Source: a bacterium (GTDB lineage Bacteria; Hydrothermota; Tepidihabitantia; SM23-42; JAOAFX01). Taken from it: a stretch of DNA of 64,000 nt. The notes under the pieces were generated by a model. It made no database searches and was not told the DNA's origin. It saw nothing but the letters and a program-made list of their open reading frames with translations. The stretch lies in the NCBI GenBank assembly GCA_036382775.1, contig DASVHD010000036.1:18657-82656 (forward strand), written 5' to 3'. This document shows, one piece after another, positions 8,901 to 55,948 of this stretch (positions are counted from its first letter, which is position 1; each line of letters begins with the position of its first letter). The position numbers and the translations under genes were made by a program.

Positions 8901-9437
8901 TTTACCCATGGTACCCCGGGCGGGCACAGCCGTACCACCCTCATAGTTGACTTCGAACCTGACCATAGAATGGAATACCAGTTTTCCGGACCTGGGGCGG
9001 TACTGAACCGGGTAGATCATTAGCTCCAGCATCAGCTGACCGTCGCAGATACCGGACCCGGTCACATTAATGGCCTGCGCCGGAAAGGGATCGTTGGAAA
9101 AATAGATCTGCGCGTCCGGAACTGCATTGACCACACGGTTGACCGAAAGGATCATGGGCGGACGGCAGCACATGACCCGGTATATGCCGGGCAGCTCATG
9201 AGAATCCAACGACGTTACGATGACATCTTTGACCACGGCGCCGGCAGGTAAAGCGATCATGACGCTCCTTGCCGGCAGCTCGGGAGCACCAACCTGGTCC
9301 GTGATATCGAGACCCTGATATCTTACCTTGACCAATGTATCTGTCCGGTCAACGCTGATCATGGACTCATCAAAACGCATCTCGCCGGTATAGGTATTCC
9401 CCAGGATCACCAGTCCGATCATCGCAATGCACGTCAT
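5970..9437 (-). CDS. Gingipain-like cysteine peptidase of family C25 with a propeptide-like N-domain and a T9SS C-terminal sorting domain, 1155 aa
   Basis: The C25 catalytic-domain start 'YRYVIITNPPL...YVLLGGDTAFIPC' is present. Candidate catalytic His is near residue 428 ('LFNHDGHGW') and Cys near 465 ('YSIGCWTAAF'). The CTD reads 'GVYFVALESGDFKQLKKVVLLK'. An AAGGGGG ribosome-binding site precedes the ATG. Confidence 0.8.
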   Translation of the reverse strand: MTCIAMIGLVILGNTYTGEMRFDESMISVDRTDTLVKVRYQGLDITDQVGAPELPARSVMIALPAGAVVKDVIVTSLDSHELPGIYRVMCCRPPMILSVNRVVNAVPDAQIYFSNDPFPAQAINVTGSGICDGQLMLELMIYPVQYRPRSGKLVFHSMVRFEVNYEGGTAVPARGTMGKSLAYNSSNIPGYAATRDRGEYRYVIITNPPLDTVFQRIADWKTKKGMRACVRTKDWIVTNYPGEDNAARIRNYIKTLPDSSVEYVLLGGDTAFIPCRFAFAMTCSAGFAPGREDTLPCDLYYADLQGDWDLDNDGSYGEIEDNIDLYPDLYVGRAPVSTIAQAQRFVDKVLTYERDPATGYLDKALFTAEVLWTDPYTDQGVHKNKIGEESFPPDFQLTKLYQSLGNETKESVMTAIRDGQGLFNHDGHGWIDLISVGGWPNRIYIADFDTITNDPYNGILYSIGCWTAAFDYACVAEAYVNSPSGGGVAYIGNSSYGWGSPGNPGFGYSDRFDTRFFHSLFNEDHWHLGQALSLAKAHYIPFSREKNVYRWHQYELNLLGDPELPVWSSMPESTIVYHPQTIPLGSSTILISVRDANSGLPVAGALVCLMKGSESYAYDFTDAQGQVYLFATPASAGSFDLTVTAHNYLCAEHTVPVASGSYVNFQGWVLNDMFGNSDSIANPGEDILLSVRIKNCGTAAAQNIEMRLRDSDPLTIIPDSTAQVNYLGPGDSLLLENAFGIEIGAAPDGHAVGFDMQVVSAADTLDFSPAIMIGAPVLSIDQIDIPAAPTLPGETESLYVDVENAGHGYGHSTWAQLTSSDPYVTVAVNGSWYGEVDPESVKAATQPFVIAVSASCPASYCARLLVTFHSENYQFADTISLLIGNTGFSDDMESGTGQWTTAGSNNLWHISERRAFSPTHALYCGSETLGTYINDMDCYIQSVAFMIQPNSMLKFYRWFSVPLYGSDGIYVIVIDNRTGTADTLDFIGTGGALGLNGIQSDWFEEKYSLADYPAGETILVRIAFISDTNSIGEGFYIDNVNIEYITAVSEGDALSGDLSALGFSVFPNPFYKNLVIKYQIPSTKFQTNSKSQAALKIYDAAGRLVKQFSHLTIQPINQIIWDGADEIGRLVPAGVYFVALESGDFKQLKKVVLLK

Positions 9438-44583: not shown

Positions 44584-45078
44584 TTATTTACCCGGCCCGT
44601 GCTTTGACGGCGGGACCGTCTTTTTGGGTTCGGCTTTCCGCGTTTTACTGTCCTTGTCCTCGTCTTTGTTATCATCCTTATCATTATCTTTATCTTTATT
44701 ATTATCCCGTCTGAACAGGTCCTTGAACTTTGACTCCAGCTGCTTTATCCTGTCAAAATCCTTTTCCCGCTGGTCATTGACGTTGTTCGAATCGATGTCG
44801 ATGATCTTGTCGCCGTTCTTGTCCGTGATGTTCTTTATCTTGCCCTTGAGGTCGAATTTCACTTCCTTGCCTTTTTCATCTGCATCATTCTTGTTATTGT
44901 CATCCTTACCCTTGCCTTCTTTGATAATATCTCCATCCTTGTTGGCCTCTTCGTTCTTTACCACGGTTTTTGTATTACCGTCGTCTTTAATGTTTCTGGC
45001 CGACTTGGGCACCGGCTGGACCGCAAAGGACAAACTCAGCAAAAGCAGTAATGTCAGGAGTAATATTTTTATCTTCAT
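44584..45078 (-). CDS. Secreted Lys/Asp/Asn-rich low-complexity protein
   Basis: AAGGAG precedes the ATG at 45078. The signal peptide is 'MKIKILLLTLLLLLSLSFA', and the remainder is roughly 40% K/D/N/E. Confidence 0.55.
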   Translation of the reverse strand: MKIKILLLTLLLLLSLSFAVQPVPKSARNIKDDGNTKTVVKNEEANKDGDIIKEGKGKDDNNKNDADEKGKEVKFDLKGKIKNITDKNGDKIIDIDSNNVNDQREKDFDRIKQLESKFKDLFRRDNNKDKDNDKDDNKDEDKDSKTRKAEPKKTVPPSKHGPGK

Positions 45079-45136
45079 GGTCGCTCCTTGAATTATAAGG
45101 AAATTACATGCCTTGTCAACCGTTCGCGCGGACATG

Positions 45137-45826
45137 TCATTCCTCCCAAAGTTTCACGAACACGCGCCGGTGTTCACCCGGCTCAAGATAGATCCTGCGC
45201 GTGAGGGTCCGGTACCATGTCTTCCTGATCCTCACGACGTACTCTCCGGGTTTCAGTTCGATCGTGTACGGCGCCTTGCCGACGTATTCCTCATCACCGG
45301 TCCCGACGTTTTCAATGTAGATGCGGCATTTCTTGGGGTTCGAGACGATCCGCAGCAGGACCGGCTCCGGTTCTCTGATATTCAGTTCCAAAGACCGCCT
45401 GACCACATCGTCTGTAACCGCCTCATCGCTTTCATATTCCGGCACGTCTTTTGTCGACACCAGCAGGACGATCGTCTCAGTGCCTCCTGGACCGTTGACT
45501 TCGTACTCGAAATTGTCGTCCGGCGATGGCAGCTCGTAGACTCGGCCGGCTTTGACCCATCCTTCTTCTTCATCGTCTGCCGACGGGAACAGCCGACTGC
45601 GCTCGCCCGAAACCTCGATGTCGTAGACCGCCACATAGCAGTCGTACGGAACCCTGAAATAGATCTTGAGCTTGTCGCCGGTCTGGTACGTCAGGTCACC
45701 ATTGTTTACCCAGAGCTCGATGCCGTCGCTGCTGGAAAGGGTCGCGGGAGACCCGCCCGCACCGGACGGGTCTCCTGCAGGGTTTAGGGAGGCGATCAAG
45801 CTAAGGACCAGCAATATTGCGTTCAT
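45137..45826 (-). CDS. Secreted protein with a DUF4384-like domain and a C-terminal PEGA-like domain
   Basis: A signal peptide is present. The DUF4384 pattern is 'GDKLKIYFRVPYDCYVAVYDIEVSGERSRLFP'. The PEGA-like region is 'PKKCRIYIENVGTGDEEYVGKAPYTIELKPGEYVVRI'. Confidence 0.55.
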   Translation of the reverse strand: MNAILLVLSLIASLNPAGDPSGAGGSPATLSSSDGIELWVNNGDLTYQTGDKLKIYFRVPYDCYVAVYDIEVSGERSRLFPSADDEEEGWVKAGRVYELPSPDDNFEYEVNGPGGTETIVLLVSTKDVPEYESDEAVTDDVVRRSLELNIREPEPVLLRIVSNPKKCRIYIENVGTGDEEYVGKAPYTIELKPGEYVVRIRKTWYRTLTRRIYLEPGEHRRVFVKLWEE

Positions 45827-45828
45827 TG

Positions 45829-46878
45829 TTATCTCCGCGCTCCCGGGGATGGTCTTGCCGAGCGTTCCCGGGAAGAATTATCCGTATTGCCGCCACCGTT
45901 ACCGCCTTTGTCGGGTATCGAGCTCCTGTTGTTGCGCGCCTTGCTGTTGTCATTCTCTTTTTCTCGATCGCTGTTGTTATTGTCATTCCGTTCGTATGAA
46001 TCATCCCGTTCCGGCTTGCGATTATCAGGCTTGTCATACTCTTCCTGATCCTGGTCGCCCTGGTCGTTCTTGTTCTGGTCCTCGTCTTCGTAATACTCGC
46101 TCCAGTCGCGCTTTTCCACGTTCGGATTCTTCGACTTGTCATTATTACCGTTATCATTGTTATATTTGCGGCCTTCCAGGTTCTTCGTCGTATTGGTCTC
46201 CTTATCAATGACCCGGTCGCTGCGCTCGTCGGCGAAGTTCTTTTCCTCAAGGTTAACCTTGCTCTTGCTGAGCTGGTATTCCTCGTTCTTGACCTCGATC
46301 TCTTTGCGCTGTTTGACTTCGTAATCCTTGCGCATCTTTTCAAGGTTGCCGCTCTTTTCCTCTTTTTGCAGCCGCTTGTACAGATCAGGGTCTTTCTCTT
46401 TTGTCAAACGCATCACTTCCTTCTCGTTGTAGGGTACGTCGATCTGACGCGGCGGCTTGTCCGGCAGGCTAATACCGTACTCGTGCGCCTTGTACTTGAA
46501 GTCGTTGTACGAATAATGCAGCTCGTACCTGACGTATCGGCCGTAACGCGGCCGCCAGTAGCAGTGTCCGCCTTCATACCACACGATGTAGTAGCCGGCA
46601 CCGAAGAAATGCCAGTCCCAATTATGGCACCAATGGCAGCGGTACCAGTACCAGTCCCACCACCACGGGTGATACCACACGTAGTAGACGCAATAGTACC
46701 CGTGCGGGTAATACGCCCAGTAGTGGTCGTAGTGATGGTAGTACGGATCGTCTTGCCAGTACTCGTCGTACCAGTAATCATCACCATATTCATCTCCGTC
46801 ATAATGCGCGTAGGCGAAGTTCAGGCCAAACACACCAAAAGATATGGCTGCTAGGCCCAACAAAATGATGTTCTTCAT
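45829..46878 (-). CDS. Secreted protein with an extreme Trp/Tyr/His/Cys-rich domain and a long Lys/Glu/Asp/Asn-rich tail
   Basis: AAGGAGG lies 7 nt before the ATG. The signal peptide is 'MKNIILLGLAAISFGVFGLNFAYA'. Residues about 25-135 are dominated by W, Y and H with 4 Cys. The remaining roughly 215 aa are charged and disordered. Confidence 0.55.
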   Translation of the reverse strand: MKNIILLGLAAISFGVFGLNFAYAHYDGDEYGDDYWYDEYWQDDPYYHHYDHYWAYYPHGYYCVYYVWYHPWWWDWYWYRCHWCHNWDWHFFGAGYYIVWYEGGHCYWRPRYGRYVRYELHYSYNDFKYKAHEYGISLPDKPPRQIDVPYNEKEVMRLTKEKDPDLYKRLQKEEKSGNLEKMRKDYEVKQRKEIEVKNEEYQLSKSKVNLEEKNFADERSDRVIDKETNTTKNLEGRKYNNDNGNNDKSKNPNVEKRDWSEYYEDEDQNKNDQGDQDQEEYDKPDNRKPERDDSYERNDNNNSDREKENDNSKARNNRSSIPDKGGNGGGNTDNSSRERSARPSPGARR

Positions 46879-46894
46879 GGCATCCTCCTTTATG

Positions 46895-47674
46895 TTAATG
46901 CCCAATGACCAACTCTGGATTGCCGGGATCGATCTGGTATGCCCAGTCAAACACCATGTGCTCTGGTCCGACTTCGGTCACGCGGAGTTTGGCAAAATGA
47001 TTGTCCCAGGTCCAGAAAACGTAAGTATGCCCCTCAACCGCCTCAACCACACCAGACGGCGACCAACCCTGGTCTGGAGCATACGTGATATCATCCATTG
47101 ATTCTGTATATCCCATGTCCTGGATCAAACCGCCGCTCTTGTATACAAGCAGGTACGGGATATCGCTCGGCGAATCATAATCATAATAAATATCGCTCTG
47201 CGAATAATTCCAGGACACGATCTCGTATTCGCTGAAATCCCAGCCGGCATAAACCGGATATTCATCGACATCGTACAGCCTTATATTATACCCCTCAGGC
47301 CTCGGCGTATCGAAAACCAGCTCGTATGAAAGATCGCTCTCGTTCCCGTTTTCGTCGAAAGCCGTGATCGCGTAAAAATACGTAAGGCCGTTTTCCAATC
47401 CGTAATCAAGGAAGTAATCAAAGTTCGTTTCGCCGATCAAATAGTACGGGCCTTCCGGATCATAACTCCGGTATATTCGGTACGCTTCAAGGTCAGGTTC
47501 GTTATTCGCATACCAGTAAAGCATGACTTCTTCATCACCAGTCACCGAGGTTAATCCCCTGGGTATGGCTGGTGGTTCATTATCAGCTTCCTCATAGCAG
47601 CAAGGAGCATATATAAGGGCTCCTGCTATCAGTATCATTTTCAGAGAATTTGTTATTTTTTTAATGTTTTTCAT
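46895..47674 (-). CDS. Secreted or lipid-anchored protein containing a fibronectin-III domain
   Basis: The signal peptide is 'LIAGALIYAPCC'. The FN3 pattern is 'LTSVTGDEEVMLYWYANNEPDLEAYRIYRS...YFYAITAFDENGNES'. Confidence 0.6.
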   Translation of the reverse strand: MKNIKKITNSLKMILIAGALIYAPCCYEEADNEPPAIPRGLTSVTGDEEVMLYWYANNEPDLEAYRIYRSYDPEGPYYLIGETNFDYFLDYGLENGLTYFYAITAFDENGNESDLSYELVFDTPRPEGYNIRLYDVDEYPVYAGWDFSEYEIVSWNYSQSDIYYDYDSPSDIPYLLVYKSGGLIQDMGYTESMDDITYAPDQGWSPSGVVEAVEGHTYVFWTWDNHFAKLRVTEVGPEHMVFDWAYQIDPGNPELVIGH

Positions 47675-47859: not shown

Positions 47860-48885
47860 ATGAAAAAGGTTCTGCTTTTAGTCTTGATACTAGCTGCATC
47901 AGTATTTTCCAAAGAAGATACGGCACCGATCGAGAAATACATTGATAAGATCAGCGTCGGCGATCCCATTGAATACAAGAATCTGAAAATATTCCCTTTG
48001 AACGTGCTTTCCGCGCTTAGCACCATGGACTATGTTACGCTTGACCAGGCCATGGATAAAGGCTGGTTAAAAATAAAGGAAAGCGGCGAAGGCGAAGTGA
48101 ACACGGTCATGGTTAAGAATAATGGCGACGCGCCGGTCTTTTTACTCACTGGCGAGATGATAACCGGTGCCAAGCAGGACCGGATGCTCGAAAAAGACCT
48201 GCTCCTGCCATCGAACAGTGGCTGGGTGGAAGTTCCCGTATACTGCGTGGAACATGGCCGCTGGGTATCGGTCTCCTCTGAATTCAAGTCTGGCGGTTAT
48301 GTGGTGCCCAACGCGGTGCGTCAGGCGGCCAAGATTAACCCCAGCCAGTCAGAAGTGTGGGACAAAGTGGCCGAGAACCAGGAACAACTGGGTGTCGCTT
48401 CGGGGACAGGTACTGCCCGCGATACTTATGAGGACTCGGATGTCCAGAAACGATTGGACGATTATGAGGTTAATCTCGGCAAAGTCCCGAAACTTTCAAG
48501 CACCACGATCGGAGTGGTCGTAACGACCGGCGACCGGATAATCTGCTTCGACCTGTTTGCCAACAACGGTCTGCTCAAGAAACTCTGGAAAAAACTGGTC
48601 AAGTCCTATGCCATGGACGCGCTGACCGGCGAGAAGAGCACGCTGACCAAATCCGATATCAGGGAATTGCTCGAGGTCTTCGAGGACGCTCGGTTTGTCT
48701 CGACCGGGACAGCCGGTTTGGGCGATCTTTTTACGATCGAGTCGACGGTCGGTAAGGGTTCAGCCCTGACCTATGGTAAAGCCGTGGTTCACATGGACTT
48801 CTTCCCCAGTGAAGACCTCCCGACCGATGATGAAGGTGATGGACTGCGCCTTGATTTCAGACGGGATCAGAGGAACGACGACTAG
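47860..48885 (+). CDS. Secreted hypothetical protein, possibly DUF6569/ARPP-1-like, but I could not confirm that
   Basis: AAGGAGG precedes the ATG, and a signal peptide is present. The protein is 341 aa and transcribed divergently from the low-complexity operon. Confidence 0.55.
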   Translation: MKKVLLLVLILAASVFSKEDTAPIEKYIDKISVGDPIEYKNLKIFPLNVLSALSTMDYVTLDQAMDKGWLKIKESGEGEVNTVMVKNNGDAPVFLLTGEMITGAKQDRMLEKDLLLPSNSGWVEVPVYCVEHGRWVSVSSEFKSGGYVVPNAVRQAAKINPSQSEVWDKVAENQEQLGVASGTGTARDTYEDSDVQKRLDDYEVNLGKVPKLSSTTIGVVVTTGDRIICFDLFANNGLLKKLWKKLVKSYAMDALTGEKSTLTKSDIRELLEVFEDARFVSTGTAGLGDLFTIESTVGKGSALTYGKAVVHMDFFPSEDLPTDDEGDGLRLDFRRDQRNDD

Positions 48886-48978: not shown

Positions 48979-51381
48979 TTACTTTACCAAAACCGCCTTT
49001 TGCGTCACGCTCTTGCCATCAGATTTAGACTCCAACCGGTAAAAATACACGCCCGGACTTACCTCTCTTCCCTTTCCATCCCTGCCATCCCACGTGACCG
49101 TCTGCCAGCCGGTTCTTTGCGCAGATCCCTGCCAGAGGATCGCGACCAGACTTCCGCTGGCGTTGTAGATTTTCAGTGCGTAGTCTTTATCAATGGCTGG
49201 CAAGCTGAATCTCACGCGGTGGCTGCCAATCCGTACCGGATTCGGGAAGAAGCTTCCAAGATCGAACCGCGCGGTATGCACTGGACTGCTGCTTTCCTCA
49301 ATACCTGGCTCGGGTTCGAACGCACCGGTCAGCACCACGGCAAAAGGCTGGCGCGCGGTCACCACATTTGCCGCCATGATCCTGATCTGCCATAAGCCTG
49401 TCCTGGGGACATTTATCCGGAAACATTCGTAGGGATTGAGGCTATCATAGCGCGCCGTGGGATTGATAATAGACTGACCGCCTGTATACACGCTGCCTTT
49501 GAACGAATCTCCGTAAGCGTTGACCATCCTGACGTCCAGATTGTTGATCAATACGCGCGCGGCGCCGGCTGCGGCCGCGGTGTCGGTCCAGCAGACAACA
49601 GCCCTTAACGGTACGGTTGAATCATCGACATTGAACTGGTATTCCGCAAATTGCCCAGTGGCAAGGCCGGTCGTGTCATCATCCAGCAGCAATTCCCTTT
49701 TTTCGGGCGTCGGCAAGGCAAAATAAAGAACGGAATCGAGATCGATCCGGCCCCAGCCGATATATTCGCTGGGCACGACATATGCCCCGACATTCGGATC
49801 GCAGGATACGATGATCATCGCCTTGAGCAGGGCACCGCTGACATAATCCATGCTGTCTGCCGGATCGAGCGTGCCGCTCGGATACCAGCCTTTTCTCAGG
49901 TATTCGCGGATCAGACCGATGCAGCCGTTGCACGAAGGCGCCGCCATTGACGTGCCGCTCATGCTGGTGTACGAGTTAGTCGTGCCTTCCATGGCTGAAT
50001 AGACATTACTCCCGATCGTCGAACAATCCGGTTTCACCCTGCCATCGGGTCCGGGGCCGCGGCTTGAATAAGTAGCCAGGGTTGTGGCGCTCGTACCGTT
50101 GCCCAGCGCGGCCATGGCGATGACCGATTTCGCGTTGCCGGGCTCGGTGATCCGGTACTGCGATGACTGACCCTGGTTGCCGCATGATTTTATCAGCACC
50201 ACATCCTTGTTTCTCCAGCAGAACATGTCAAACTCCATTGATTTCGCCGAATATACGCCCATGGTTCCGGTCCACCAGGAGTTGGAGATAGTGTGCGTGC
50301 GCAGCTGAGGATTGCGAAGGGTATTGGTAAGCATGTCCAGGATAGTAATGTAATTATAAGACGAACTCGGGATCGGGCTCAGGTGCGAAATACGCGCTTT
50401 CTTGGAATGGCCATCCCGCACGTCTGTGCCGCCCATGGCTGAATCATTGCCCACGGTCGTGCCGCCCACATGAGTGCCATGACCGTCAGGATCACCCACG
50501 CCGCTGGCCGGCGGATAATGTTTGAACACCACGACTTTTTGATGGGTCGGGAATTCACCCGTGTCCGTAATGGAAAATGCCGGATCGCCGAATGCCCAGT
50601 GATTAACATCAAGTCCAGTGTCAGTGTATCCCAGGATCTCGTCGGTGCCGAAAATCCCCTGGCGCCAGATCGACCGGGTCGTATCATTCGGCGGCAACCC
50701 CTTCTGGTTCACCCATTGCGCAAGATCGTTCTCCGGTGCCGAGGGAAACCACTCCTCGATCCAGCAAACCGAGGGCAAACGCGTCATTTCTGGCAGCTGC
50801 GACCGTAGGCAGCTCACAAAGAAAAATTTTATTTCCGCGGTATTGGATAGATCAAGGATCTTGACCTTAAGCGCTTCCAGGGCTCCGCGCGTATCATTAA
50901 CGCTTTCAGTATGGAAAATATAGACCAGGAATCTTGATTCCCGGCTGCCATTCAGGATGTTTTTGTATAATTTAAAGGCCGGCTGATAGATCCCGCTCCA
51001 GCGCACCATAGATAACTTATCGACCTCGGCCCTCACCCTGTCGTTCATCTTCACGATGAACATATTCTGCGAATGGCATCCGAGTAAGACCGCTCCGGTA
51101 TTATGAAGTTGGTCGATCATGCTTGCATATATTGGACCGCGCAATTGGACGAGATAATATCCATCGCCGTCGCCCGGGTATTTGTCGCATTTCAGGTCAA
51201 GGTCATCGGGTAGAATTGGCTGCGATACGAGCGGATCAAAAGTATGATCAGTGATCCTGATAACCGCCGCGTCACCGGCAGGTTCAGGTACGTAATATCC
51301 CCTGGCCGAAGGCTGGAACGGGTTGTTAAGTGCGAACACCCACATTCCCGCAATCAGGGTTAACAACGCGATATTTTTCAT
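48979..51381 (-). CDS. S8 subtilisin-family serine peptidase with a T9SS C-terminal sorting domain
   Basis: The catalytic triad motifs 'DTGLD', 'HGTHVGGT' and 'GTSMAAP' are present. The CTD reads 'GVYFYRLESKSDGKSVTQKAVLVK'. AGGGAGG precedes the ATG at 51381, and the signal peptide is 'MKNIALLTLIAG'. Confidence 0.9.
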   Translation of the reverse strand: MKNIALLTLIAGMWVFALNNPFQPSARGYYVPEPAGDAAVIRITDHTFDPLVSQPILPDDLDLKCDKYPGDGDGYYLVQLRGPIYASMIDQLHNTGAVLLGCHSQNMFIVKMNDRVRAEVDKLSMVRWSGIYQPAFKLYKNILNGSRESRFLVYIFHTESVNDTRGALEALKVKILDLSNTAEIKFFFVSCLRSQLPEMTRLPSVCWIEEWFPSAPENDLAQWVNQKGLPPNDTTRSIWRQGIFGTDEILGYTDTGLDVNHWAFGDPAFSITDTGEFPTHQKVVVFKHYPPASGVGDPDGHGTHVGGTTVGNDSAMGGTDVRDGHSKKARISHLSPIPSSSYNYITILDMLTNTLRNPQLRTHTISNSWWTGTMGVYSAKSMEFDMFCWRNKDVVLIKSCGNQGQSSQYRITEPGNAKSVIAMAALGNGTSATTLATYSSRGPGPDGRVKPDCSTIGSNVYSAMEGTTNSYTSMSGTSMAAPSCNGCIGLIREYLRKGWYPSGTLDPADSMDYVSGALLKAMIIVSCDPNVGAYVVPSEYIGWGRIDLDSVLYFALPTPEKRELLLDDDTTGLATGQFAEYQFNVDDSTVPLRAVVCWTDTAAAAGAARVLINNLDVRMVNAYGDSFKGSVYTGGQSIINPTARYDSLNPYECFRINVPRTGLWQIRIMAANVVTARQPFAVVLTGAFEPEPGIEESSSPVHTARFDLGSFFPNPVRIGSHRVRFSLPAIDKDYALKIYNASGSLVAILWQGSAQRTGWQTVTWDGRDGKGREVSPGVYFYRLESKSDGKSVTQKAVLVK

Positions 51382-51584
51382 AAAGCCTCCCTTACTATTT
51401 TTATCTAATTTAGGCACGAATTCTTTAAGGTAACAATTGTGTTTAGATTCTTCCCCTTCGCTGCACTCAGGGTCAGAATGACAATCTTGCAGGTCATTCT
51501 GAGGGTTTCGCCAGAAACCCGAAGAATCTCTATTCGTCAAGCAGTTATACCAAAACAACGGATTGAAAGCCACCATGAATCTGC

Positions 51585-53240
51585 CTACCTTTCCCCCTCT
51601 TCGATCTCGGTTATGCACTGGAGGATCTCCAGTTCATCGGCGTCGAACCAGATCAGACCACATGTCCAGCATTCATCGATCTCAACGTGGTGCGCGTAGC
51701 TGTAGAACTTATGCACCATTGGTTTGCCGCATTTCGGGCAGTTGCGCGGTTGAGCCGTGGCGATGCGGAGCTCGCATTTGTAACCGTGCTCTTTCGACTG
51801 TTTCCTGATGACGTCGGCCAGGTGCTGAACCCTTTTTGAGAAACCTTTTTCCTTGCGCGTGATTATGCGGGGGATCTTGTCGCGCTCGACCAGAATGCCC
51901 CGGCAGAACGCGCATTCTGACACGTACATCCCTTCGTATGGCAGTACGATCAGCCATTGCCGGCACAGCGGGCACAGCCGCCTGATCTTCCACATCGGTT
52001 CTTTTCTGACTTCAAAGAAAAAAGTGAGTGCCGGGACCTCCACGGCGGCGATTACCTCGGTGCTGCCGTCCACGCGTAGCCTGGTCTCAGGGATGAGCCA
52101 ATCCAAGCCCATAAGCTGGAGCATTGAGAACGGCCCGTACCATTCGTCATTTTTCTCGGCATAGAATACGGGACCGGTCTCTGGTATGTCGGCCTCGGTC
52201 TTGACCGTGATCTTTTTCTGGATCTGTTCGGTCAGCTGACTTATCTCGCCATGGCCCAGGTCAAGCAGGACTTGGAGCCGCTTGGTGAAAGGCGGGTGCG
52301 TGGAAAAAAGGGTCGGCCAGAAACCTTCGGATTCTTCCATAAGGTTGTGCTCAGGGCTCATGATGAAGATCGCGGACAGCCGGTCGCCGCTGTAACCGGC
52401 GCCGCGCCAGCGCAGGGCGATCTTGTACAGCGCGCTCGCCAGGCTCATCGGATCGCGGCTCAGCCTTGCTGCCGCGGCATCAGCCCGGTATTCCTTTTCC
52501 CTGGAAATGAACATGTTAAGCAGCGAACCAAAACACTCGAAAACGAACAGCGCCAGCAGAACGGGCATGGATGCCGCCACTGCGGAACTCGCCCGGCGCT
52601 GATTTTGCTCTCCGCGGTCAAAGGACGCTAATTGTGGAGCCCGTGCCAGCGCTTCTTCGTATACGTTAAACAGCGAGCAGACGATAGTCGTCAGGAGACA
52701 GTCGCCGGAGACGATGTGCGCCATTTCGTGCGCCACCACGGACTGCAGTTCTTCGCGCTTGAGCCGCGAGATCAAACCTTCGGTCACGCCGATGACCATA
52801 CGGCCGCTCAGGTCGGCCAGGGCGAAAGCGTTCATCGCGCCGGTCGGGATGACATACCTTTCGACCTGCAGGCCGCCGGCGGCCGCTTGCAGTTCATCGA
52901 CCACGTTTTCGAAGACGTGATGGTAATTATCGTGTTTGTCCGGATGCCTGACGCCAAGACAACCCAGGATCTTGTCGACCACGATCTTGTTGGAGTGATA
53001 CCAGTGGAACCACGTGACAATTAGCGCGACCAGCATGACAATAACCGTATCCCAGTCGAACAGGCTGAACTTCATGGCCTGCCACGTGAGGAAGAGTCGG
53101 TTGGAGAGCACAAGTTTAACGATCAGCCAGGCGACCCAGATGAATATAAAATGGATTAAAAGCAAAAAGGAAAAAACGGCGTAGATCCGCCACGTTTTTT
53201 CCTTTTCAATGTCCCAGAATGTCTTGATCGTTTCAGCCAT
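51585..53240 (-). CDS. M48-family (HtpX-like) membrane zinc metallopeptidase with a C-terminal GYF-like domain and multiple CxxC zinc ribbons
   Basis: M48 motifs 'HEMAHIV', 'EYRAD' and 'STHPP' are present. The C-terminal extension carries 'CPLCRQ', 'CAFCRG', 'CPKCGK' and 'CWTCG' plus 'NDEWYGPFSMLQL'. Confidence 0.75.
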   Translation of the reverse strand: MAETIKTFWDIEKEKTWRIYAVFSFLLLIHFIFIWVAWLIVKLVLSNRLFLTWQAMKFSLFDWDTVIVMLVALIVTWFHWYHSNKIVVDKILGCLGVRHPDKHDNYHHVFENVVDELQAAAGGLQVERYVIPTGAMNAFALADLSGRMVIGVTEGLISRLKREELQSVVAHEMAHIVSGDCLLTTIVCSLFNVYEEALARAPQLASFDRGEQNQRRASSAVAASMPVLLALFVFECFGSLLNMFISREKEYRADAAAARLSRDPMSLASALYKIALRWRGAGYSGDRLSAIFIMSPEHNLMEESEGFWPTLFSTHPPFTKRLQVLLDLGHGEISQLTEQIQKKITVKTEADIPETGPVFYAEKNDEWYGPFSMLQLMGLDWLIPETRLRVDGSTEVIAAVEVPALTFFFEVRKEPMWKIRRLCPLCRQWLIVLPYEGMYVSECAFCRGILVERDKIPRIITRKEKGFSKRVQHLADVIRKQSKEHGYKCELRIATAQPRNCPKCGKPMVHKFYSYAHHVEIDECWTCGLIWFDADELEILQCITEIEEGER

Positions 53241-53288: not shown

Positions 53289-55826
53289 TTAGCCATAGAT
53301 CGGCATTTGTTCGCGCAGTGCCTCGTATAACTTTTTACCTTTCTTTTGCAGGGCTTCATCCGCTTTTTGCAGATCCTTGATCAGGTCGGCGAACGTGGCC
53401 TTATGACCCGCGGTTTTTCCGCCATTAGCCTGGATGACCTTTACCAGCGCAGCCTTCATCTCCTCGCGCATGAGCTGCCACAGGTCCTTACCCTGGACGT
53501 GCGCGATCAGCCGGCCCATCGCCAGCGACATGGACAATACCGCGTTCATACCCAGATTCCCTTTTCTCTGCATCACCTCGATGACCTCATCGCGCGACGC
53601 GTTCTGGGTTATTTTGCCGCGTTTTATCGCCGTTTCCTTTTCCAAGTTCAAAAGCAGCCGGTCCACGGTTGTGATCGCCGTGAAATCCGAGACCTTTTTG
53701 CCGATGAACTCTTTGGCAATGATATTCAGCACGTTGTTAACCGCGTTCTGACAGCCCTTGCCTTCATAGCGCTGCACTGACTTCCACAGCGCGTTAAGCT
53801 CAGTGTCGTTCTTCGCGCTGACTGCGGCTTCGTTCGTGCCTTTCTTGAATTTGAAGGTCTTGTCGGCCTGGGCCGTGAACAGATCGGGGTACTTGTCAAC
53901 GACCCCAGACCTTTCGATCGTGCTGTCGATCAGGTGGATCGCCTCGCCGGTGCCGGCAGACGTGCCCAGCGGCGTTGAACCGGTGAATTTAAAGATCTTG
54001 CGGTATTGCTCGCTGCCCGCGATGCCGGCGTATAGATCAACACCGACCGACGGGATACCCGCGTTCGTGGGTTCCTCGTACGCGATGACCTCGGTGATCA
54101 CCAGATCCTGGATTATGCCCGCAATCTTAGTGACATCGCTTTTAGTAAAACCGCCCTTGGCAACCCGTTCCATCTCTTTCATTGTCTTTGTGACTGAACC
54201 GTATTTATACAGCCTTTCCGTGTTCGCGCCACCACCCGCTTTCAGGCCCAGCGAATTGACCGCCAGCGCGATCTGTGCTTCCATGTCGTCGTTAGGTGAT
54301 TTGGAACGGTGCGAAACGACCAGATCAAGTCCCTTACCCAGTGCGACGAGCATGGCGATAAGGCACTCAGATAGGGTGCCGATCTGATTCGCCTTGATAA
54401 GCGCCGTGTTGATCAGCCCTTTAGATGCGCACTCCTCGATCGTGGAATCCTTGGTAGTCACCAGGTCATCGCCGATAATGAAGACCTTGTCGCCCAGTTC
54501 CTTCATGAGCAGACGCCAGCCCTCGTGATCGTCTTCTGCGAACGCGTCTTCGAGCGATACGATCGGTACCTCCTCGACCGCTTTTTTGAACAGCTCGACC
54601 AGCTGGTCACGGGACATCACGACCTTCTCCTCGCCCCGCCAGAAATAATACATTCCGACGCTGTCCGGCTGATTGAATTCTTCCCGGTAGGCGTTGCTCA
54701 ATTCGCTTAACGCCGGATCGAACGCGATCGCGATGTCGTCGCCGGGTTTGTAGCCGATATCCCTGATCGCCTGCACGGCCATGCGCCACATCCGCTGTTC
54801 AGGGACCTGATCCTGAGGTTCTTTGGCGACAAAAGGGGCGAGACCGCCCTCCAGGCCGATACCCATGACCCGGGCGCCTTCGGATTTTTCCATGATCTCC
54901 TTCAAACGCGTCTGCAACGCGACCGTGATCATCTGCGCTTCCTCGTAATTTTTAGCGCACAGCGGCACGAACATCATTTCCTGCATGCTGATATTGCTTT
55001 CCGGATATTCCTTTTCCGTATGCCTGCCGCCCATGCCGCAGTTGCGATACTGCCAGGGCGCCCTGAGCATATCGCCGTCTGGCAGCGGTACTTCCTGGAT
55101 CCTTTTGTTCATCATCATCTGTTTCACGCTCTTGACTTTGTTCATCCAGGTGTCCTTGCTGATCTCGACCGTTTCGGCTTTTTCCTTTGCCTTAGCTTCG
55201 CGTGCCCGGAATTCGCGGTACTTACCCGGATCAGCCAACAAAAAGTCCAGCAATCCTACCAGTCCGATACCCAGAGATAGACGTCCAAAGTATATCATGA
55301 TCTCGATGTTCTGGATCAAGCCAATGATCAAAAGAACCGCGGCGATCGGCAGCATGACCAAAGACATGTTCCCGCTGCTCGCAGGACCAGCCGCAGCGAC
55401 CGCGAGGTTGAATGGAGCGTCCGGATAATAGGTCAGACCTTCCCGTTTCACGCCCGCAAACGCGCCGTATGGAATAAGTAAGTACATTTTGATATACCAC
55501 AGCAGTTTAGTGAAAAAGTCGGCTTTGATCTTTTTTTGCGCTTCAGGCAGAAGGTTTTCCTTCAGGGCGTTCAAGCGCACGGCCTGCAGGTAGTGACCCA
55601 TTTCATGGATCGCGATGCCCGTGTGGAAACTTAAGAACCAGAATACCGCAGAAACGATCGTTTCCGTGCTCGTGAAAACAAAACCGAGCACGTCCCTGCC
55701 CGCGATCCCTTCCCTGATGCACAGGATCGATGAAATGAACGCAACATGGAATGAAACCAGGATGTGGTTCGCGATGACCCACCCAGAGTGTAAGTTTTGC
55801 TTTATCGTACTTATTAAGTTTTTCAT
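53289..55826 (-). CDS. Fusion protein with three parts. An N-terminal polytopic membrane domain carries an HEMGH zinc-protease-like motif. It is followed by an enolase TIM-barrel domain and then an enolase cap (N-terminal) domain, that is, an enolase that appears circularly permuted.
   Basis: Five transmembrane helices with 'HTGIAIHEMGHYL' come first. The barrel follows with 'GIGLEGGLAP', 'IAFDPA', 'PIVSLEDAFAEDDHEGW', 'IIGDDLV', 'LIKANQIGTLSE', 'VVSHRS' and 'GLKAGGGANTERLYKY'. The C-terminal region 'AGIPSVGVDL...PLGTSAGTGEAIHL...GKGCQNAVNNVL...LGMNAVLSMSLAMG' matches the enolase 'RGNPTVEV..SGASTG..GKGV.KAV..GANAILAVSLA' cap domain. AAGGAAGG precedes the ATG at 55826. Confidence 0.7.
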   Translation of the reverse strand: MKNLISTIKQNLHSGWVIANHILVSFHVAFISSILCIREGIAGRDVLGFVFTSTETIVSAVFWFLSFHTGIAIHEMGHYLQAVRLNALKENLLPEAQKKIKADFFTKLLWYIKMYLLIPYGAFAGVKREGLTYYPDAPFNLAVAAAGPASSGNMSLVMLPIAAVLLIIGLIQNIEIMIYFGRLSLGIGLVGLLDFLLADPGKYREFRAREAKAKEKAETVEISKDTWMNKVKSVKQMMMNKRIQEVPLPDGDMLRAPWQYRNCGMGGRHTEKEYPESNISMQEMMFVPLCAKNYEEAQMITVALQTRLKEIMEKSEGARVMGIGLEGGLAPFVAKEPQDQVPEQRMWRMAVQAIRDIGYKPGDDIAIAFDPALSELSNAYREEFNQPDSVGMYYFWRGEEKVVMSRDQLVELFKKAVEEVPIVSLEDAFAEDDHEGWRLLMKELGDKVFIIGDDLVTTKDSTIEECASKGLINTALIKANQIGTLSECLIAMLVALGKGLDLVVSHRSKSPNDDMEAQIALAVNSLGLKAGGGANTERLYKYGSVTKTMKEMERVAKGGFTKSDVTKIAGIIQDLVITEVIAYEEPTNAGIPSVGVDLYAGIAGSEQYRKIFKFTGSTPLGTSAGTGEAIHLIDSTIERSGVVDKYPDLFTAQADKTFKFKKGTNEAAVSAKNDTELNALWKSVQRYEGKGCQNAVNNVLNIIAKEFIGKKVSDFTAITTVDRLLLNLEKETAIKRGKITQNASRDEVIEVMQRKGNLGMNAVLSMSLAMGRLIAHVQGKDLWQLMREEMKAALVKVIQANGGKTAGHKATFADLIKDLQKADEALQKKGKKLYEALREQMPIYG

Positions 55827-55948
55827 AACAGTCCTTCCTTTCATTTTATTTCTTATATGCTCAAATCTTCAGTACATTAAATATGCGCCATTCAAAGGTT
55901 TAAACCTATATAATACCAACATGAATTATATCTGAAATTGCCGATTTG

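What the first reader, a model, noticed from the sequence alone, without database searches (positions are those of the whole stretch)
45829..46878. Secreted protein whose N-domain is about 60% Trp/Tyr/His with four Cys, followed by a K/E/D/N-rich disordered tail
After a clean signal peptide, the sequence reads 'HYDGDEYGDDYWYDEYWQDDPYYHHYDHYWAYYPHGYYCVYYVWYHPWWWDWYWYRCHWCHNWDWHFF...'. Such aromatic and histidine density is extremely unusual for a bacterial protein. It suggests metal or redox chemistry, adhesion through pi-stacking, or templating of a mineral or matrix. The gene has a strong AAGGAGG ribosome-binding site and is tightly packed within an operon, so it is unlikely to be a spurious ORF.
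Basis: seen in the sequence. Interest (0 to 1): 0.75.

Follow-up and report, generated by a model that had tools for sequence, protein, structure and literature searches.

The report
Trp/Tyr-packed orphan envelope protein of WOR-3
This is a real, exported protein found only in the uncultured bacterial phylum WOR-3; about half of its ~100-residue core is tryptophan, tyrosine or histidine, it matches no known family or solved fold, it always lies in the same four-gene cell-envelope cassette, and its function is still unknown.

Summary
Window 45829..46878 (-) encodes a 349-aa protein with a signal peptide. Its 100-aa core is 52% W+Y+H (14 W, 27 Y, 11 H) with 4 Cys. A conserved helical charged segment and a 144-aa K/E/D/N-rich tail follow.

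Codon statistics and substitution rates across 40 orthologues (0.14/0.13/0.43 by codon position) show the frame is under purifying selection.

About 100 homologues exist, all from WOR-3/Stahlbacteria MAGs. A profile search of 1.84 billion proteins, Pfam, NCBIfam, the PDB and fold searches found nothing related. The "DUF3300/DUF5667" auto-names are unsupported.

The conserved features are:
- about 45% W+Y+F, with 12 invariant or near-invariant Trp;
- a Cys/His cluster: H59, C63, C81-H82-x-(C/H)84-H85-H86.

High His density is not conserved.

The gene is always second in a four-gene cassette:
- g1, a lipoprotein (FN3 plus an HmuY-like β-sandwich);
- g2, this gene;
- g3, DUF4384+PEGA;
- g4, a small charged protein with its own perfectly conserved consensus promoter.

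Zixibacteria have the same module without g2. There an aromatic linker and a disordered tail sit on the DUF4384-PEGA protein.

Best reading, inferred only: an envelope adaptor or tether subunit with a metal- or disulfide-stabilised aromatic docking domain. It is a new family with a moderately high level of interest.

The parts
46895..47674 (-). g1: lipoprotein of 259 aa. It has a signal peptide with a lipobox, an FN3-like domain (res 34-129) and a C-terminal beta-sandwich (res ~130-255) whose best non-FN3 structural match is an HmuY-family protein.
46884..46890 (-). AAGGAGG ribosome-binding site of g2, 5 nt upstream of the ATG.
   Evidence: Read directly from the sequence.
45829..46878 (-). 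g2: the finding. A 349-aa exported protein made of an aromatic Cys/His domain, a helical charged segment and a disordered tail.
46807..46878 (-). g2 signal peptide, res 1-24 (MKN / IILLGLAAISFGVFGL / NFAYA). The cleavage site is uncertain and could lie between residues 18 and 24, because the NF-x-Y motif is conserved.
   Evidence: By inspection. The n/h/c regions are conserved in all homologues. No signal-peptide predictor was available.
46507..46806 (-). g2 aromatic domain, res 25-124. It consists of an acidic/aromatic N-segment (res 25-55) and an ultra-aromatic core (res 56-124).
   Evidence: It contains 14 W, 27 Y, 11 H and 4 C per 100 aa. Invariant or near-invariant Trp are W41, W54, W68, W72, W73, W74, W78, W83, W89, W100, W106 and W107. 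AF2 pLDDT is below 50 for res 25-68 and 83-96 for most of res 85-174.
46621..46704 (-). Conserved Cys/His cluster of g2, res 59-86: H59, C63, C81-H82-W83-C84-H85-N86. The family consensus is C-H-W-[C/H]-H-H. This stretch includes the CXXCH-like motif.
   Evidence: Column occupancies in 95 sequences. CXXCH is intact in only 71 of 99 cores.
46264..46431 (-). g2 conserved charged helical segment, res ~150-205 (DPxLYxRxxKExKSGNLEKMR...KNxEY).
   Evidence: Conserved in alignments A1 and A2. AF2 predicts helices at trimmed positions 128-180 with pLDDT 69-89.
45832..46263 (-). g2 hypervariable disordered tail, res 206-349, ending in Arg-Arg.
   Evidence: Across the family the tail is 57-195 aa, a median 84% polar, with a charged fraction of 0.43. 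The last residue is Arg in 74 of 83. A basic short motif occurs in 49 of 87 tails against 0.8 expected. The window copy lacks that motif.
45137..45826 (-). g3: exported DUF4384 + PEGA protein of 229 aa. Its start codon lies 2 nt after the g2 stop.
   Evidence: Pfam DUF4384 E 5.8e-21 and PEGA E 1.4e-11. Present directly downstream of g2 in 43 of 46 loci; the absences are at contig ends.
45092..45119 (-). Perfect sigma-70 consensus promoter TTGACA-N16-TATAAT in the g3-g4 gap.
   Evidence: 12/12 match. Both hexamers and the 16-nt spacer length are invariant in 39 loci while the spacer sequence varies. The -10 element ends 10-16 nt before the g4 ATG.
44584..45078 (-). g4: small exported protein of 164 aa. 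It has a signal peptide, an AVQPVP motif, a K/D/N-rich region and a D/N-rich loop (DIDSNNVNDQRE).
   Evidence: The ATG is at 45078. Homologues occur in 42 of 46 loci. There is no Pfam match.

Best explanation
What it is (shown): g2 is a genuine Sec-type exported protein of a previously undescribed family confined to phylum WOR-3 (Stahlbacteria and relatives). It is always the second gene of a conserved four-gene envelope cassette:
- g1, a lipoprotein with an FN3 domain and an HmuY-like beta-sandwich;
- g2, this protein;
- g3, a DUF4384+PEGA protein;
- g4, a small charged protein with its own consensus promoter.

g2 has three parts:
1. A unique, non-repetitive domain of about 100 aa. About 45% of its residues are W, Y or F, with 12 invariant or near-invariant Trp. 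It holds a Cys/His cluster: H59, C63, C81-H82-x-C/H84-H85-H86.
2. A conserved charged helical segment of about 55 aa.
3. A hypervariable, highly charged tail of 57-195 aa that looks intrinsically disordered. It usually carries one basic short motif and ends in Arg.

How it most likely works (inferred): g2 stays in the envelope of this diderm organism as a stoichiometric partner of g1 and g3. The tight spacing of the genes suggests coupled translation. The aromatic core is a compact fold held together by a bound metal ion and/or a C63-C81 disulfide. It serves as the docking module, attaching either to its lipoprotein or PEGA partner or to the membrane interface. The helices and the long polyampholyte tail project away as a flexible tether or spacer that contacts another envelope layer or polymer.

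The sister phylum Zixibacteria has the same module without g2. There the DUF4384-PEGA protein itself carries an aromatic-rich linker and a long disordered tail. This suggests that 'aromatic segment plus disordered tail' is a required function of the module, and that WOR-3 supplies it on a separate polypeptide.
For: Real gene:
- Codon log-likelihood and GC3 favour this frame.
- Substitution rates across orthologues are 0.14/0.13/0.43 by codon position.
- 67 homologues have E-values down to 1e-88.

Lineage restriction and orphan status:
- The family occurs in 41 species-representative genomes, all WOR-3, Stahlbacteria or 'TA06 DG_78' where the title names a phylum.
- A profile search of 1.84e9 representative proteins returned only family members and fragments.
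- There is no Pfam or NCBIfam hit in any of 24 members, even at E<=1.
- There is no PDB sequence hit.

Cassette:
- The order g1-g2-g3-g4 holds in 42-46 of 46 loci while the flanks differ.
- In the window the gaps are 16 nt and 2 nt.

Envelope location:
- All four products have signal peptides, and g1 has a lipobox.
- A WOR-3 isolate is diderm with a thick wall (PMC12285271).

Docking and interface propensity:
- The best 19-mer, YYCVYYVWYHPWWWDWYWY, has a Wimley-White interfacial free energy of -15.9 kcal/mol. The best transmembrane-like segment in the window scores -11.1.

Cys/His cluster: column occupancies and the lack of an even-number bias in Cys counts.

Disordered tail: composition, length variation and the short motif.

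Zixibacteria module:
- Its g1-like lipoprotein is 40% identical to window g1 (E 1e-57).
- Its roughly 500-aa protein combines DUF4384, an aromatic linker, PEGA and a tail, and belongs to a family of at least 268 members.
- It has a g4-like protein with the same D/N-rich loop.
Against: - No experiment or structure supports any binding activity.
- AF2 is unconfident for the most aromatic part, res 25-68. No coordinates were available to check the geometry of the Cys/His cluster.
- g2 shows no detectable homology to the Zixibacteria aromatic linker: hhalign probability is 0.05% and 0.39%. The functional-replacement argument therefore rests only on position and composition.
- The window copy has a net-negative tail without the basic motif, unlike most of the family. 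Any tail function that depends on charge is therefore not uniform.
- The periplasmic versus cell-surface location was not determined.
- The functions of DUF4384, PEGA, g1 and g4 are themselves unknown.
Confidence: 0.4

Rival explanations
1. The primary function is metal binding or redox chemistry. The Cys/His cluster, with the acidic and aromatic N-segment, would bind a transition metal (Cu, Zn, Ni or Fe). g2 would then act as a periplasmic metallochaperone, buffer or sensor. Alternatively the dense Trp/Tyr array would act as an electron- or hole-hopping relay or a radical sink.
For: - The cluster H59, C63, C81-H82-x-[C/H]84-H85-H86 is conserved, with Cys and His interchanging at position 84 (C 71, H 15 of 95). 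Such interchange is typical of metal ligands.
- Cys counts show no bias towards even numbers, so some Cys are unpaired.
- The domain carries 8-17 Asp+Glu per 100 aa, concentrated at the mature N-terminus.
- Trp and Tyr are the redox-active aromatic residues, and 12 Trp are invariant or near-invariant.
Against: - Overall His content is not conserved: 3-12 per 100 aa, mostly as Y<->H swaps.
- No known metal-binding family or motif matched.
- No metal transporter, oxidoreductase or regulator is linked in 46 loci.
- Position 84 is Val or Ala in 9 sequences.
- A single structural metal site would fit the best explanation equally well.
Confidence: 0.2
2. Capture of a tetrapyrrole or another planar ligand. 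The HmuY-like domain of lipoprotein g1 and the aromatic Cys/His core of g2 would together bind haem, a porphyrin, a corrinoid or another flat aromatic molecule by ring stacking and His/Tyr/Cys ligation. This would resemble a haemophore hand-off.
For: - That structure is HmuY Bf-2, which binds the porphyrin ring without coordinating iron (PMC12106395).
- One g1 homologue gives a weak Pfam HmuY hit at E 0.029.
- g2 has a CXXCH-like motif, conserved His and extreme aromatic content.
- g1 and g2 are adjacent in every locus.
Against: - HmuY is undetectable by sequence in 46 of 47 g1 members, and a PDB profile search finds only FN3.
- Some HmuY homologues bind nothing.
- No TonB-dependent receptor or hmu-type transport genes are linked.
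- Zixibacteria have g1 without g2.
Confidence: 0.12
3. g2 is a c-type cytochrome, with haem covalently attached to C81-x-x-C84-H85.
For: CXXCH is present in the window copy and in 71 of 99 distinct family cores. His follows the motif in 95 of 99. AF2 places the motif in a short helix. The protein is exported.
Against: - The motif is not conserved. The second Cys is His in 16 cores and Val or Ala in 9. The first Cys is Ser or Ala in 3.
- There is no cytochrome family or fold match.
- Cytochrome-c-dependent respiration in WOR-3 is reported only in 16 MAGs of one subgroup and is mutually exclusive with Rnf (PMC12542636).
- This window encodes an Rnf subunit.
Confidence: 0.03
4. g2 is a self-assembling matrix, fibre or biomineral-templating protein. 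It would act as a functional-amyloid-like or adhesive surface material built through aromatic stacking.
For: The aromatic density is extreme and an acidic segment is present. The tail is disordered. PEGA domains are found in some surface-layer proteins (my own knowledge, not tested here).
Against: - The domain is a unique sequence without repeats, and most of it is predicted to be a defined alpha/beta fold.
- It has no secretion signal beyond the Sec signal peptide. There is no T9SS C-terminal domain, although other proteins in the window have one.
- No amyloid-secretion genes are linked.
Confidence: 0.05
5. The ORF is spurious or in the wrong frame. The aromatic 'protein' would be a by-product of biased DNA or of a gene on the opposite strand.
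For: Long overlapping ORFs exist at 46366..46854 (+) and 46413..46802 (-). They stay open in 37-42 loci.
Against: Codon log-likelihood and GC3 favour the g2 frame. Third-position substitutions are three times as frequent as first- and second-position ones in this frame. A strong RBS and a signal peptide are present, and protein-level conservation reaches E 1e-88.
Confidence: 0.01

Closest known systems
Zixibacteria DUF4384 / aromatic-linker / PEGA / tail proteins and their three-gene module (unnamed; annotated only as 'DUF4384 domain-containing protein')
   Same: The neighbours are the same: a g1-like FN3 lipoprotein 40% identical to window g1 (E 1e-57), a DUF4384 domain 35-42% identical, and a g4-like small protein with the same D/N-rich loop. 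Both modules also include an aromatic-rich segment and a long disordered tail.
   Different: There is no separate g2 gene. The aromatic segment is a linker of about 75 aa inside the DUF4384-PEGA protein, is far less Trp-rich and is not detectably homologous to g2. The tail is S/K/G-rich. The conserved g4 promoter is absent.
c-type cytochromes (CXXCH haem attachment)
   Same: g2 is exported and has a C-x-x-C-H motif in a short predicted helix.
   Different: The motif is intact in only 71 of 99 family cores. There is no cytochrome fold or family match, and the host lineage is of the Rnf type without cytochrome-c respiration.
HmuY-family haemophore-like lipoproteins (relevant to partner g1, not to g2)
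   Different: There is no sequence-level relationship, g1 has an extra FN3 domain, and no hmu transport genes are linked. Ligand binding is untested.
Trp-rich membrane-interface segments such as the gp41 MPER and the peptides indolicidin and tritrpticin (analogy from my own knowledge)
   Same: They contain runs such as PWWWDWYW, which have a very favourable interfacial partitioning energy. The best g2 19-mer scores -15.9 kcal/mol.
   Different: Those are peptides of 13-25 residues. g2 has a conserved domain of about 100 aa with a Cys/His cluster, most of which is predicted to be a defined fold. No homology was tested or expected.
Aromatic beta-hairpin repeat modules (choline-/cell-wall-binding repeats, YXWGXW repeats; analogy from my own knowledge)
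   Same: g2 has a predicted aromatic beta-hairpin, G-[FY]-Y-V-V-W-Y-E-D-G-x-W-W (res 97-110).
   Different: No Pfam or NCBIfam repeat family hits g2, and it has no internal repeat.

Membership tests
c-type cytochrome | CXXCH haem-attachment motif essentially invariant across the family | tested here: not met
   The motif is intact in 71 of 99 distinct cores. The second Cys is His in 16 and Val or Ala in 9. The first Cys is Ser or Ala in 3 (columns).
c-type cytochrome | Recognisable cytochrome c family or fold | tested here: not met
   [not shown]
c-type cytochrome | Host genome encodes a cytochrome c maturation system (Ccm or CcsBA) | not tested
Indirect evidence from the literature: cytochrome-c respiration occurs only in a WOR-3 subgroup that lacks Rnf, and this window has an Rnf subunit.
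DUF3300 (the UniRef auto-name of homologue P0001) | Match to the Pfam DUF3300 model | tested here: not met
   No hit in the window protein or in any of 24 family members at E<=1.
DUF5667 (the UniRef auto-name of homologue P0029) | Match to the Pfam DUF5667 model | tested here: not met
   No hit in 24 members at E<=1.
Aromatic beta-hairpin repeat proteins (YXWGXW, choline-binding repeats) | Tandem copies of a repeat unit of about 20 aa, detectable by a family model or by self-comparison | tested here: not met
   No Pfam or NCBIfam hit. hhalign between sub-segments of the domain finds only trivial overlaps.
Intrinsically disordered polyampholyte region (the g2 tail) | Low hydrophobicity, high charge, and hypervariable sequence and length with conserved composition | tested here: met
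   The tail is a median 84% polar and 13% hydrophobic, with a charged fraction of 0.43 and a length of 57-195 aa. It cannot be aligned across the family. No disorder predictor or AF2 run covered the tail.
Bacterial lipoprotein (g1) | Signal peptide ending in a lipobox L-x-[AGS]-C | tested here: met
   By inspection in 41 orthologues, for example LVFASC, ILAGCC and VLISCC. The window has IYAPCC.
FN3 domain (g1 N-terminal domain) | Sequence and fold match to fibronectin type III | tested here: met
   [not shown]
HmuY family (g1 C-terminal domain) | Match to the HmuY model, or the HmuY fold with a haem/porphyrin pocket | tested here: inconclusive
   [not shown]
DUF4384 + PEGA (g3) | Pfam matches above the gathering thresholds | tested here: met
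   DUF4384 at E 5.8e-21 (74.8 bits, cut-off 27). PEGA at E 1.4e-11 (44.5 bits, cut-off 20.8).
EF-hand Ca2+-binding loop (g4) | Canonical 12-residue loop D-x-[DNS]-x-[DNS]-G-x-[ILV]-x-x-x-E | tested here: inconclusive
   The conserved loops are D-x-D-x-N-[NG]-V-N-D-Q-R-E in WOR-3 and D-K-N-N-N-G-I-D-D-R-R-E in Zixibacteria. They fit positions 1, 3, 5, 6, 9 and 12 but not the hydrophobic position 8. This was judged by inspection. No Pfam EF-hand hit.

The most novel reading that the evidence does not exclude
The g2 core would be a new protein fold in which about a dozen conserved Trp and about twenty Tyr pack around a Cys/His metal centre. It would form a redox-active, electron- or hole-hopping module, or a tetrapyrrole-stacking module. 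Together with the HmuY-like lipoprotein g1 it would make a previously unknown periplasmic system for handling ligands or electrons, specific to the anaerobic phylum WOR-3.
Probability: 0.12. Interest if true: 0.85.

Novelty: categorically new. Interest (0 to 1): 0.62.

Why it matters
Composition. A domain with 14-19% Trp and about 45% aromatic residues, conserved under purifying selection across a whole phylum, lies far outside normal protein composition. The window's own genes contain 1.3% Trp. The domain has no relative in 1.84 billion representative sequences and no match in the PDB. It is therefore a good candidate for a new fold and a useful test case for how such sequences fold and stay soluble.

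Biology. The protein marks a conserved envelope module shared by WOR-3 and Zixibacteria, two poorly understood FCB-group phyla. The module consists of a lipoprotein, a DUF4384-PEGA protein and a small charged protein. No function has been assigned to DUF4384 or PEGA.

Testability. Working out this module would give these widespread domains a first functional context. The protein is small, and its domain boundaries, candidate ligand residues and partners are now defined. Binding and structure experiments can therefore be designed directly.

Tried and rejected
1. The UniRef names 'DUF3300' and 'DUF5667' for two homologues. Current Pfam gives no hit in 24 members at E<=1. Rejected as old or weak auto-annotation.
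2. Remote homology. A profile search of 1.84e9 representatives found only the family itself plus one spurious repeat protein, P0094. The PDB profile search found nothing; the best hit had E 0.41.
4. The haem-c reading of CHWCH. The motif is not conserved and the lineage is of the Rnf type. Kept only as a 3% rival.
5. An HmuY relationship for g1 by sequence. Only 1 of 47 members hits and the PDB profile search finds only FN3. Kept only as a fold-level lead.
6. Origin of g2 by fission from the Zixibacteria aromatic linker. hhalign probability is 0.05% against a single sequence and 0.39% profile against profile. Unsupported.
7. Internal repeats in the aromatic domain. None found.
8. Disulfide pairing of the variable Cys. 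No even-number bias and only weak co-occurrence, with phi at most 0.52. Inconclusive.
10. Literature searches found nothing on this family or module. The terms were DUF4384, WOR-3 with tryptophan-rich, PEGA with lipoprotein, and Zixibacteria with DUF4384.
Full report
**1. The observation**

Window 45829..46878 on the minus strand is an ORF that starts with ATG at 46878.

After a typical signal peptide (MKN / IILLGLAAISFGVFGL / NFAYA), composition is as follows:
- Mature residues 25-124 contain 14 Trp, 27 Tyr, 11 His and 4 Cys.
- W+Y+H is 52% over those 100 residues and 55% over residues 25-100. 'About 60%' is therefore slightly high.
- Residues 141-349 are N/K/E/D-rich (13.4, 12.9, 12.9 and 11.5%) with almost no aromatic residues.

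AAGGAGG lies 5 nt before the ATG and 4 nt after the stop of the upstream gene. The downstream gene starts 2 nt after the g2 stop.

The window's confident genes contain 6.9% W+Y+H. Against that background, 52 in 100 residues has binomial P = 1.6e-33. No other long ORF in the window exceeds 21 per 100.

**2. Is it a real gene in this frame?**

Yes, on three lines of evidence.
- Codon log-likelihood against the window's own genes is +0.29 per codon in this frame and +0.01 or less in the other five. GC3 is 0.70, like the neighbours.
- A 54-codon ungapped core from 40 distinct orthologous loci shows 0.14, 0.13 and 0.43 pairwise differences per site at codon positions 1, 2 and 3. That is the signature of purifying selection on this frame.
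- The long overlapping ORFs at 46366..46854 (+) and 46413..46802 (-) are shadow frames of TGG/TAC/CAC-rich DNA.

No different frame is favoured, and the protein does not belong to a known low-complexity family.

**3. The family**

A word-indexed search of 5.8 billion proteins returned 67 homologues at 50-71% identity with E-values down to 1e-88. Every one that carries a name is from candidate division WOR-3. A scan of one genome per GTDB species found the gene in 41 genomes. All of those whose title names a phylum are labelled WOR-3, Stahlbacteria or 'TA06 DG_78' (the rest say only 'bacterium'), and nearly all have a single copy.

An exhaustive HMM search of 1.84 billion representatives with a trimmed domain profile found only the family, its contig-end fragments and one spurious repeat protein.

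No related family or structure turned up:
- Pfam and NCBIfam give no hit for the window protein, nor for any of 24 members at E<=1.
- The UniRef names 'DUF3300' and 'DUF5667' carried by two homologues are therefore unsupported.
- A PDB profile search gave nothing.

**4. Anatomy from conservation and modelling**

Alignments A1 and A2 show a conserved block from about residue 36 to 205, followed by a tail that cannot be aligned.

Across 83 distinct members, counts per 100 residues of the aromatic domain are:

| Residue(s) | Range | Median |
|---|---|---|
| Trp | 14-19 | 17 |
| Tyr | 17-28 | 22 |
| W+Y+F | 38-50 | 45 |
| His | 3-12 | 6 |

The window copy, with 11 His, is at the top of the family range. 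Most of its His occupy Y<->H swap columns.

Twelve Trp are invariant or near-invariant: W41, W54, W68, W72, W73, W74, W78, W83, W89, W100, W106 and W107. The motif R109-P-R-Y-G113 is also invariant.

hhalign between sub-segments finds no internal repeat, so this is a unique-sequence domain and not low complexity.

A Cys/His cluster is conserved. In 95 sequences the counts are:
- H59: 72
- C63: 94
- C81: 92
- H82: 80
- position 84: Cys 71, His 15, Val 8, Ala 1
- H85: 91
- position 86: His 83 (the window has Asn)

Cys counts per domain range from 2 to 9 with no preference for even numbers.

AlphaFold2 on the 43-sequence alignment gave mean pLDDT 71 and pTM 0.65.
- Residues 25-68 fall below pLDDT 50.
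- Most of residues 85-174 score 83-96.
- The confident part contains short helices around the CHWCH motif, a beta-hairpin (res 97-110), a third strand, a helix, and three helices over res 152-204.

The tail has these properties:
- length 57-195 aa;
- a median 84% polar residues and a charged fraction of 0.43;
- net charge with a median of +10;
- Arg as the last residue in 74 of 83 members;
- a short basic motif, roughly [ST]-[RH]-I-[IQ]-[KR]-[KR]-x-[KR], in 49 of 87 tails against 0.8 expected from shuffles.

The window's tail is atypical. It has a net charge of -6 and lacks the motif.

**5. Gene context**

In three divergent loci the same four genes flank each other while the surroundings differ. 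tblastn and ORF clustering over 46 loci show the order g1-g2-g3-g4 in 42-46 of them. The absences are at contig ends.

*g1 (window 46895..47674, -)*
- It is a lipoprotein with a conserved lipobox.
- It has an FN3 domain (PDB 3mpc, E 6.6e-6).
- It has a C-terminal beta-sandwich.
- Sequence methods do not support this relationship. Only 1 of 47 members gives a weak hit, and the PDB profile search finds only FN3. I treat it as a fold-level lead.

*g3 (45137..45826, -)* is DUF4384 + PEGA.

*g4 (44584..45078, -)* is a small exported K/D/N-rich protein. It has a conserved AVQPVP motif and a D/N-rich loop that fits most, but not all, positions of an EF-hand loop.

A LEA_2 lipoprotein lies upstream in 26 of 46 loci, but not in the window.

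The literature mentions DUF4384 only as an accessory domain and says nothing on this cassette.

A cultured WOR-3 isolate is diderm with a thick wall. The window also encodes T9SS-type cargo proteins.

**6. A sister module without g2**

The g1 C-domain has homologues outside WOR-3. In Zixibacteria genomes (L046, L049, L050) the arrangement is as follows:
- a g1-like lipoprotein, 40% identical to window g1 over its full length (E 1e-57);
- a protein of about 500 aa that combines DUF4384 (E 1e-21), a conserved Y/W-rich linker of about 75 aa, a PEGA-like domain and a long S/K/G-rich tail, from a family of at least 268 members;
- a g4-like protein of 96-148 aa with the loop F-x-D-x-N-N-N-G-I-D-D-R-R-E.

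So the Zixibacteria module carries 'an aromatic segment plus a disordered tail' on the DUF4384-PEGA protein. In WOR-3, g3 lacks both and g2 supplies them.

g2 is not detectably homologous to the Zixibacteria linker: hhalign probability is 0.05% and 0.39%. The parallel is therefore one of position and composition only.

In two other non-WOR-3 loci the g1-like gene stands alone.

**7. What it most likely does**

Shown:
- It is a real exported orphan protein.
- It is restricted to one phylum.
- It is strongly constrained at Trp, Tyr, Cys and His positions.
- It is fixed in an envelope cassette.

Inferred: it is an envelope adaptor or tether subunit.
- The aromatic core is extraordinarily prone to partition into an interface. 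The best 19-mer scores -15.9 kcal/mol on the Wimley-White interfacial scale, against -11.1 for the best transmembrane-like segment in the window.
- The core is probably held together by a metal ion and/or a C63-C81 disulfide.
- I propose that the core docks to g1, to g3 or to the membrane interface, while the helices and polyampholyte tail act as a flexible spacer.

I put this at about 0.4.

Rivals:
- Primary metal or redox function, 0.2. The Cys/His cluster and the C<->H interchange support it. The non-conserved His content and the lack of linked metal genes weigh against it.
- Capture of a tetrapyrrole or other planar ligand together with the HmuY-like g1, 0.12.
- Self-assembling matrix or biomineral template, 0.05.
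- c-type cytochrome, 0.03. CXXCH is intact in only 71 of 99 cores. Cytochrome-c respiration in WOR-3 is limited to a subgroup that lacks Rnf, whereas this window encodes Rnf.
- Spurious ORF, 0.01.

**8. Novelty and score**

No family, fold or described system accommodates g2. Its partners combine known domain types of unknown function. I rate the domain as categorically new, with the caveat that function is unproven and the AlphaFold database could not be searched.

Interest is 0.62. The composition and its phylum-wide conservation are very unusual. The domain boundaries, candidate ligand residues and partners are now defined well enough for direct experiments. No mechanism is demonstrated yet.

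Noticed in passing
window 45092-45119 (-); also L001 7592-7619, L005 6517-6544 and 35 other loci: A perfect sigma-70 consensus promoter (TTGACA, 16 nt, TATAAT) lies in the short g3-g4 gap. Both hexamers and the spacer length are invariant in 39 loci across the phylum, while the spacer sequence drifts. The -10 element ends only 10-16 nt before the g4 ATG, with the SD-like AAGGAG/GCGAGG in between. This implies a very short leader and probably strong, independent expression of g4. The promoter is absent from the three Zixibacteria loci.
   Followed up: partly
window 44584-45078 (-); L046 7239-7529; L049 5563-6009; L050 5594-5902: The small exported g4 proteins share a conserved D/N-rich loop. 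It reads DIDSNNVNDQRE in the window, DxDxNGVNDQRE in most WOR-3, and FxDxNNNGIDDRRE in Zixibacteria. The loop fits EF-hand positions 1, 3, 5, 6, 9 and 12 but not the hydrophobic position 8, so it is a possible Ca2+ site. The AVQPVP(R) motif directly after the signal peptide is also conserved.
   Followed up: partly
[not shown]
   Followed up: partly
L046 4781-7529; L049 3104-6009; L050 3127-5902: Zixibacteria carry a related three-gene envelope module downstream of a sigma-54 response regulator. It consists of a g1-like lipoprotein, a protein of about 500 aa (DUF4384, Y/W-rich linker, PEGA, S/K/G-rich tail; a family of at least 268 members) and a g4-like protein. In L046 the g1-like gene is split by an apparent frameshift (4781-5050 and 5001-5618).
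   Followed up: partly
L001 4613-5053; L002 4348-4797; 26 of 46 loci: A lipoprotein of about 147 aa with a LEA_2 (WHy-type) domain lies directly upstream of g1 in 26 of 46 cassette loci. It is not present in the window, where a divergently transcribed ARPP-1 domain gene (47860-48885, +) occupies that side. ARPP-1 is also the neighbour in L003, L004 and L028.
   Followed up: no
L002 5698-5985; L026 1649-1954; L016, L018, L021, L022, L029, L040, L043: About ten loci, forming one sub-clade, carry an extra conserved ORF of about 95 aa without a signal peptide between g1 and g2 (50-76% identity among them). It is absent from the window.
   Followed up: partly
window 45832-46263 (-) and homologous tails: The disordered tail of g2 ends in Arg in 74 of 83 members. 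It carries a basic short motif ([ST][RH]I[IQ][KR][KR]x[KR]) in 49 of 87 members, against 0.8 expected by chance. The window copy lacks the motif and has a net-negative tail (-6, against a family median of +10).
   Followed up: partly
window 53289-55844 (-): An 851-aa ORF gives Pfam hits in an odd order: Peptidase_M50 (res 71-232), Enolase_C (res 272-561) and then Enolase_N (res 676-737). It could be a fusion or permuted enolase-like protein, or an ORF-calling artefact.
   Followed up: no
window 5970-9437 (-) and 48979-51618 (-): Two large secreted proteases carry T9SS-type C-terminal sorting domains. One is a C25 gingipain-like peptidase with Por_Secre_tail. The other is an S8 subtilase with FlgD_ig/CHU_C. 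This fits a diderm, FCB-type envelope. g2 itself has no such domain.
   Followed up: no
window 46366-46854 (+) and 46413-46802 (-): Long shadow ORFs overlap the aromatic domain. They remain open in 37-42 orthologous loci, simply because Trp/Tyr/His codons and their complements contain no stops in those frames. Gene callers could mis-annotate them.
   Followed up: yes
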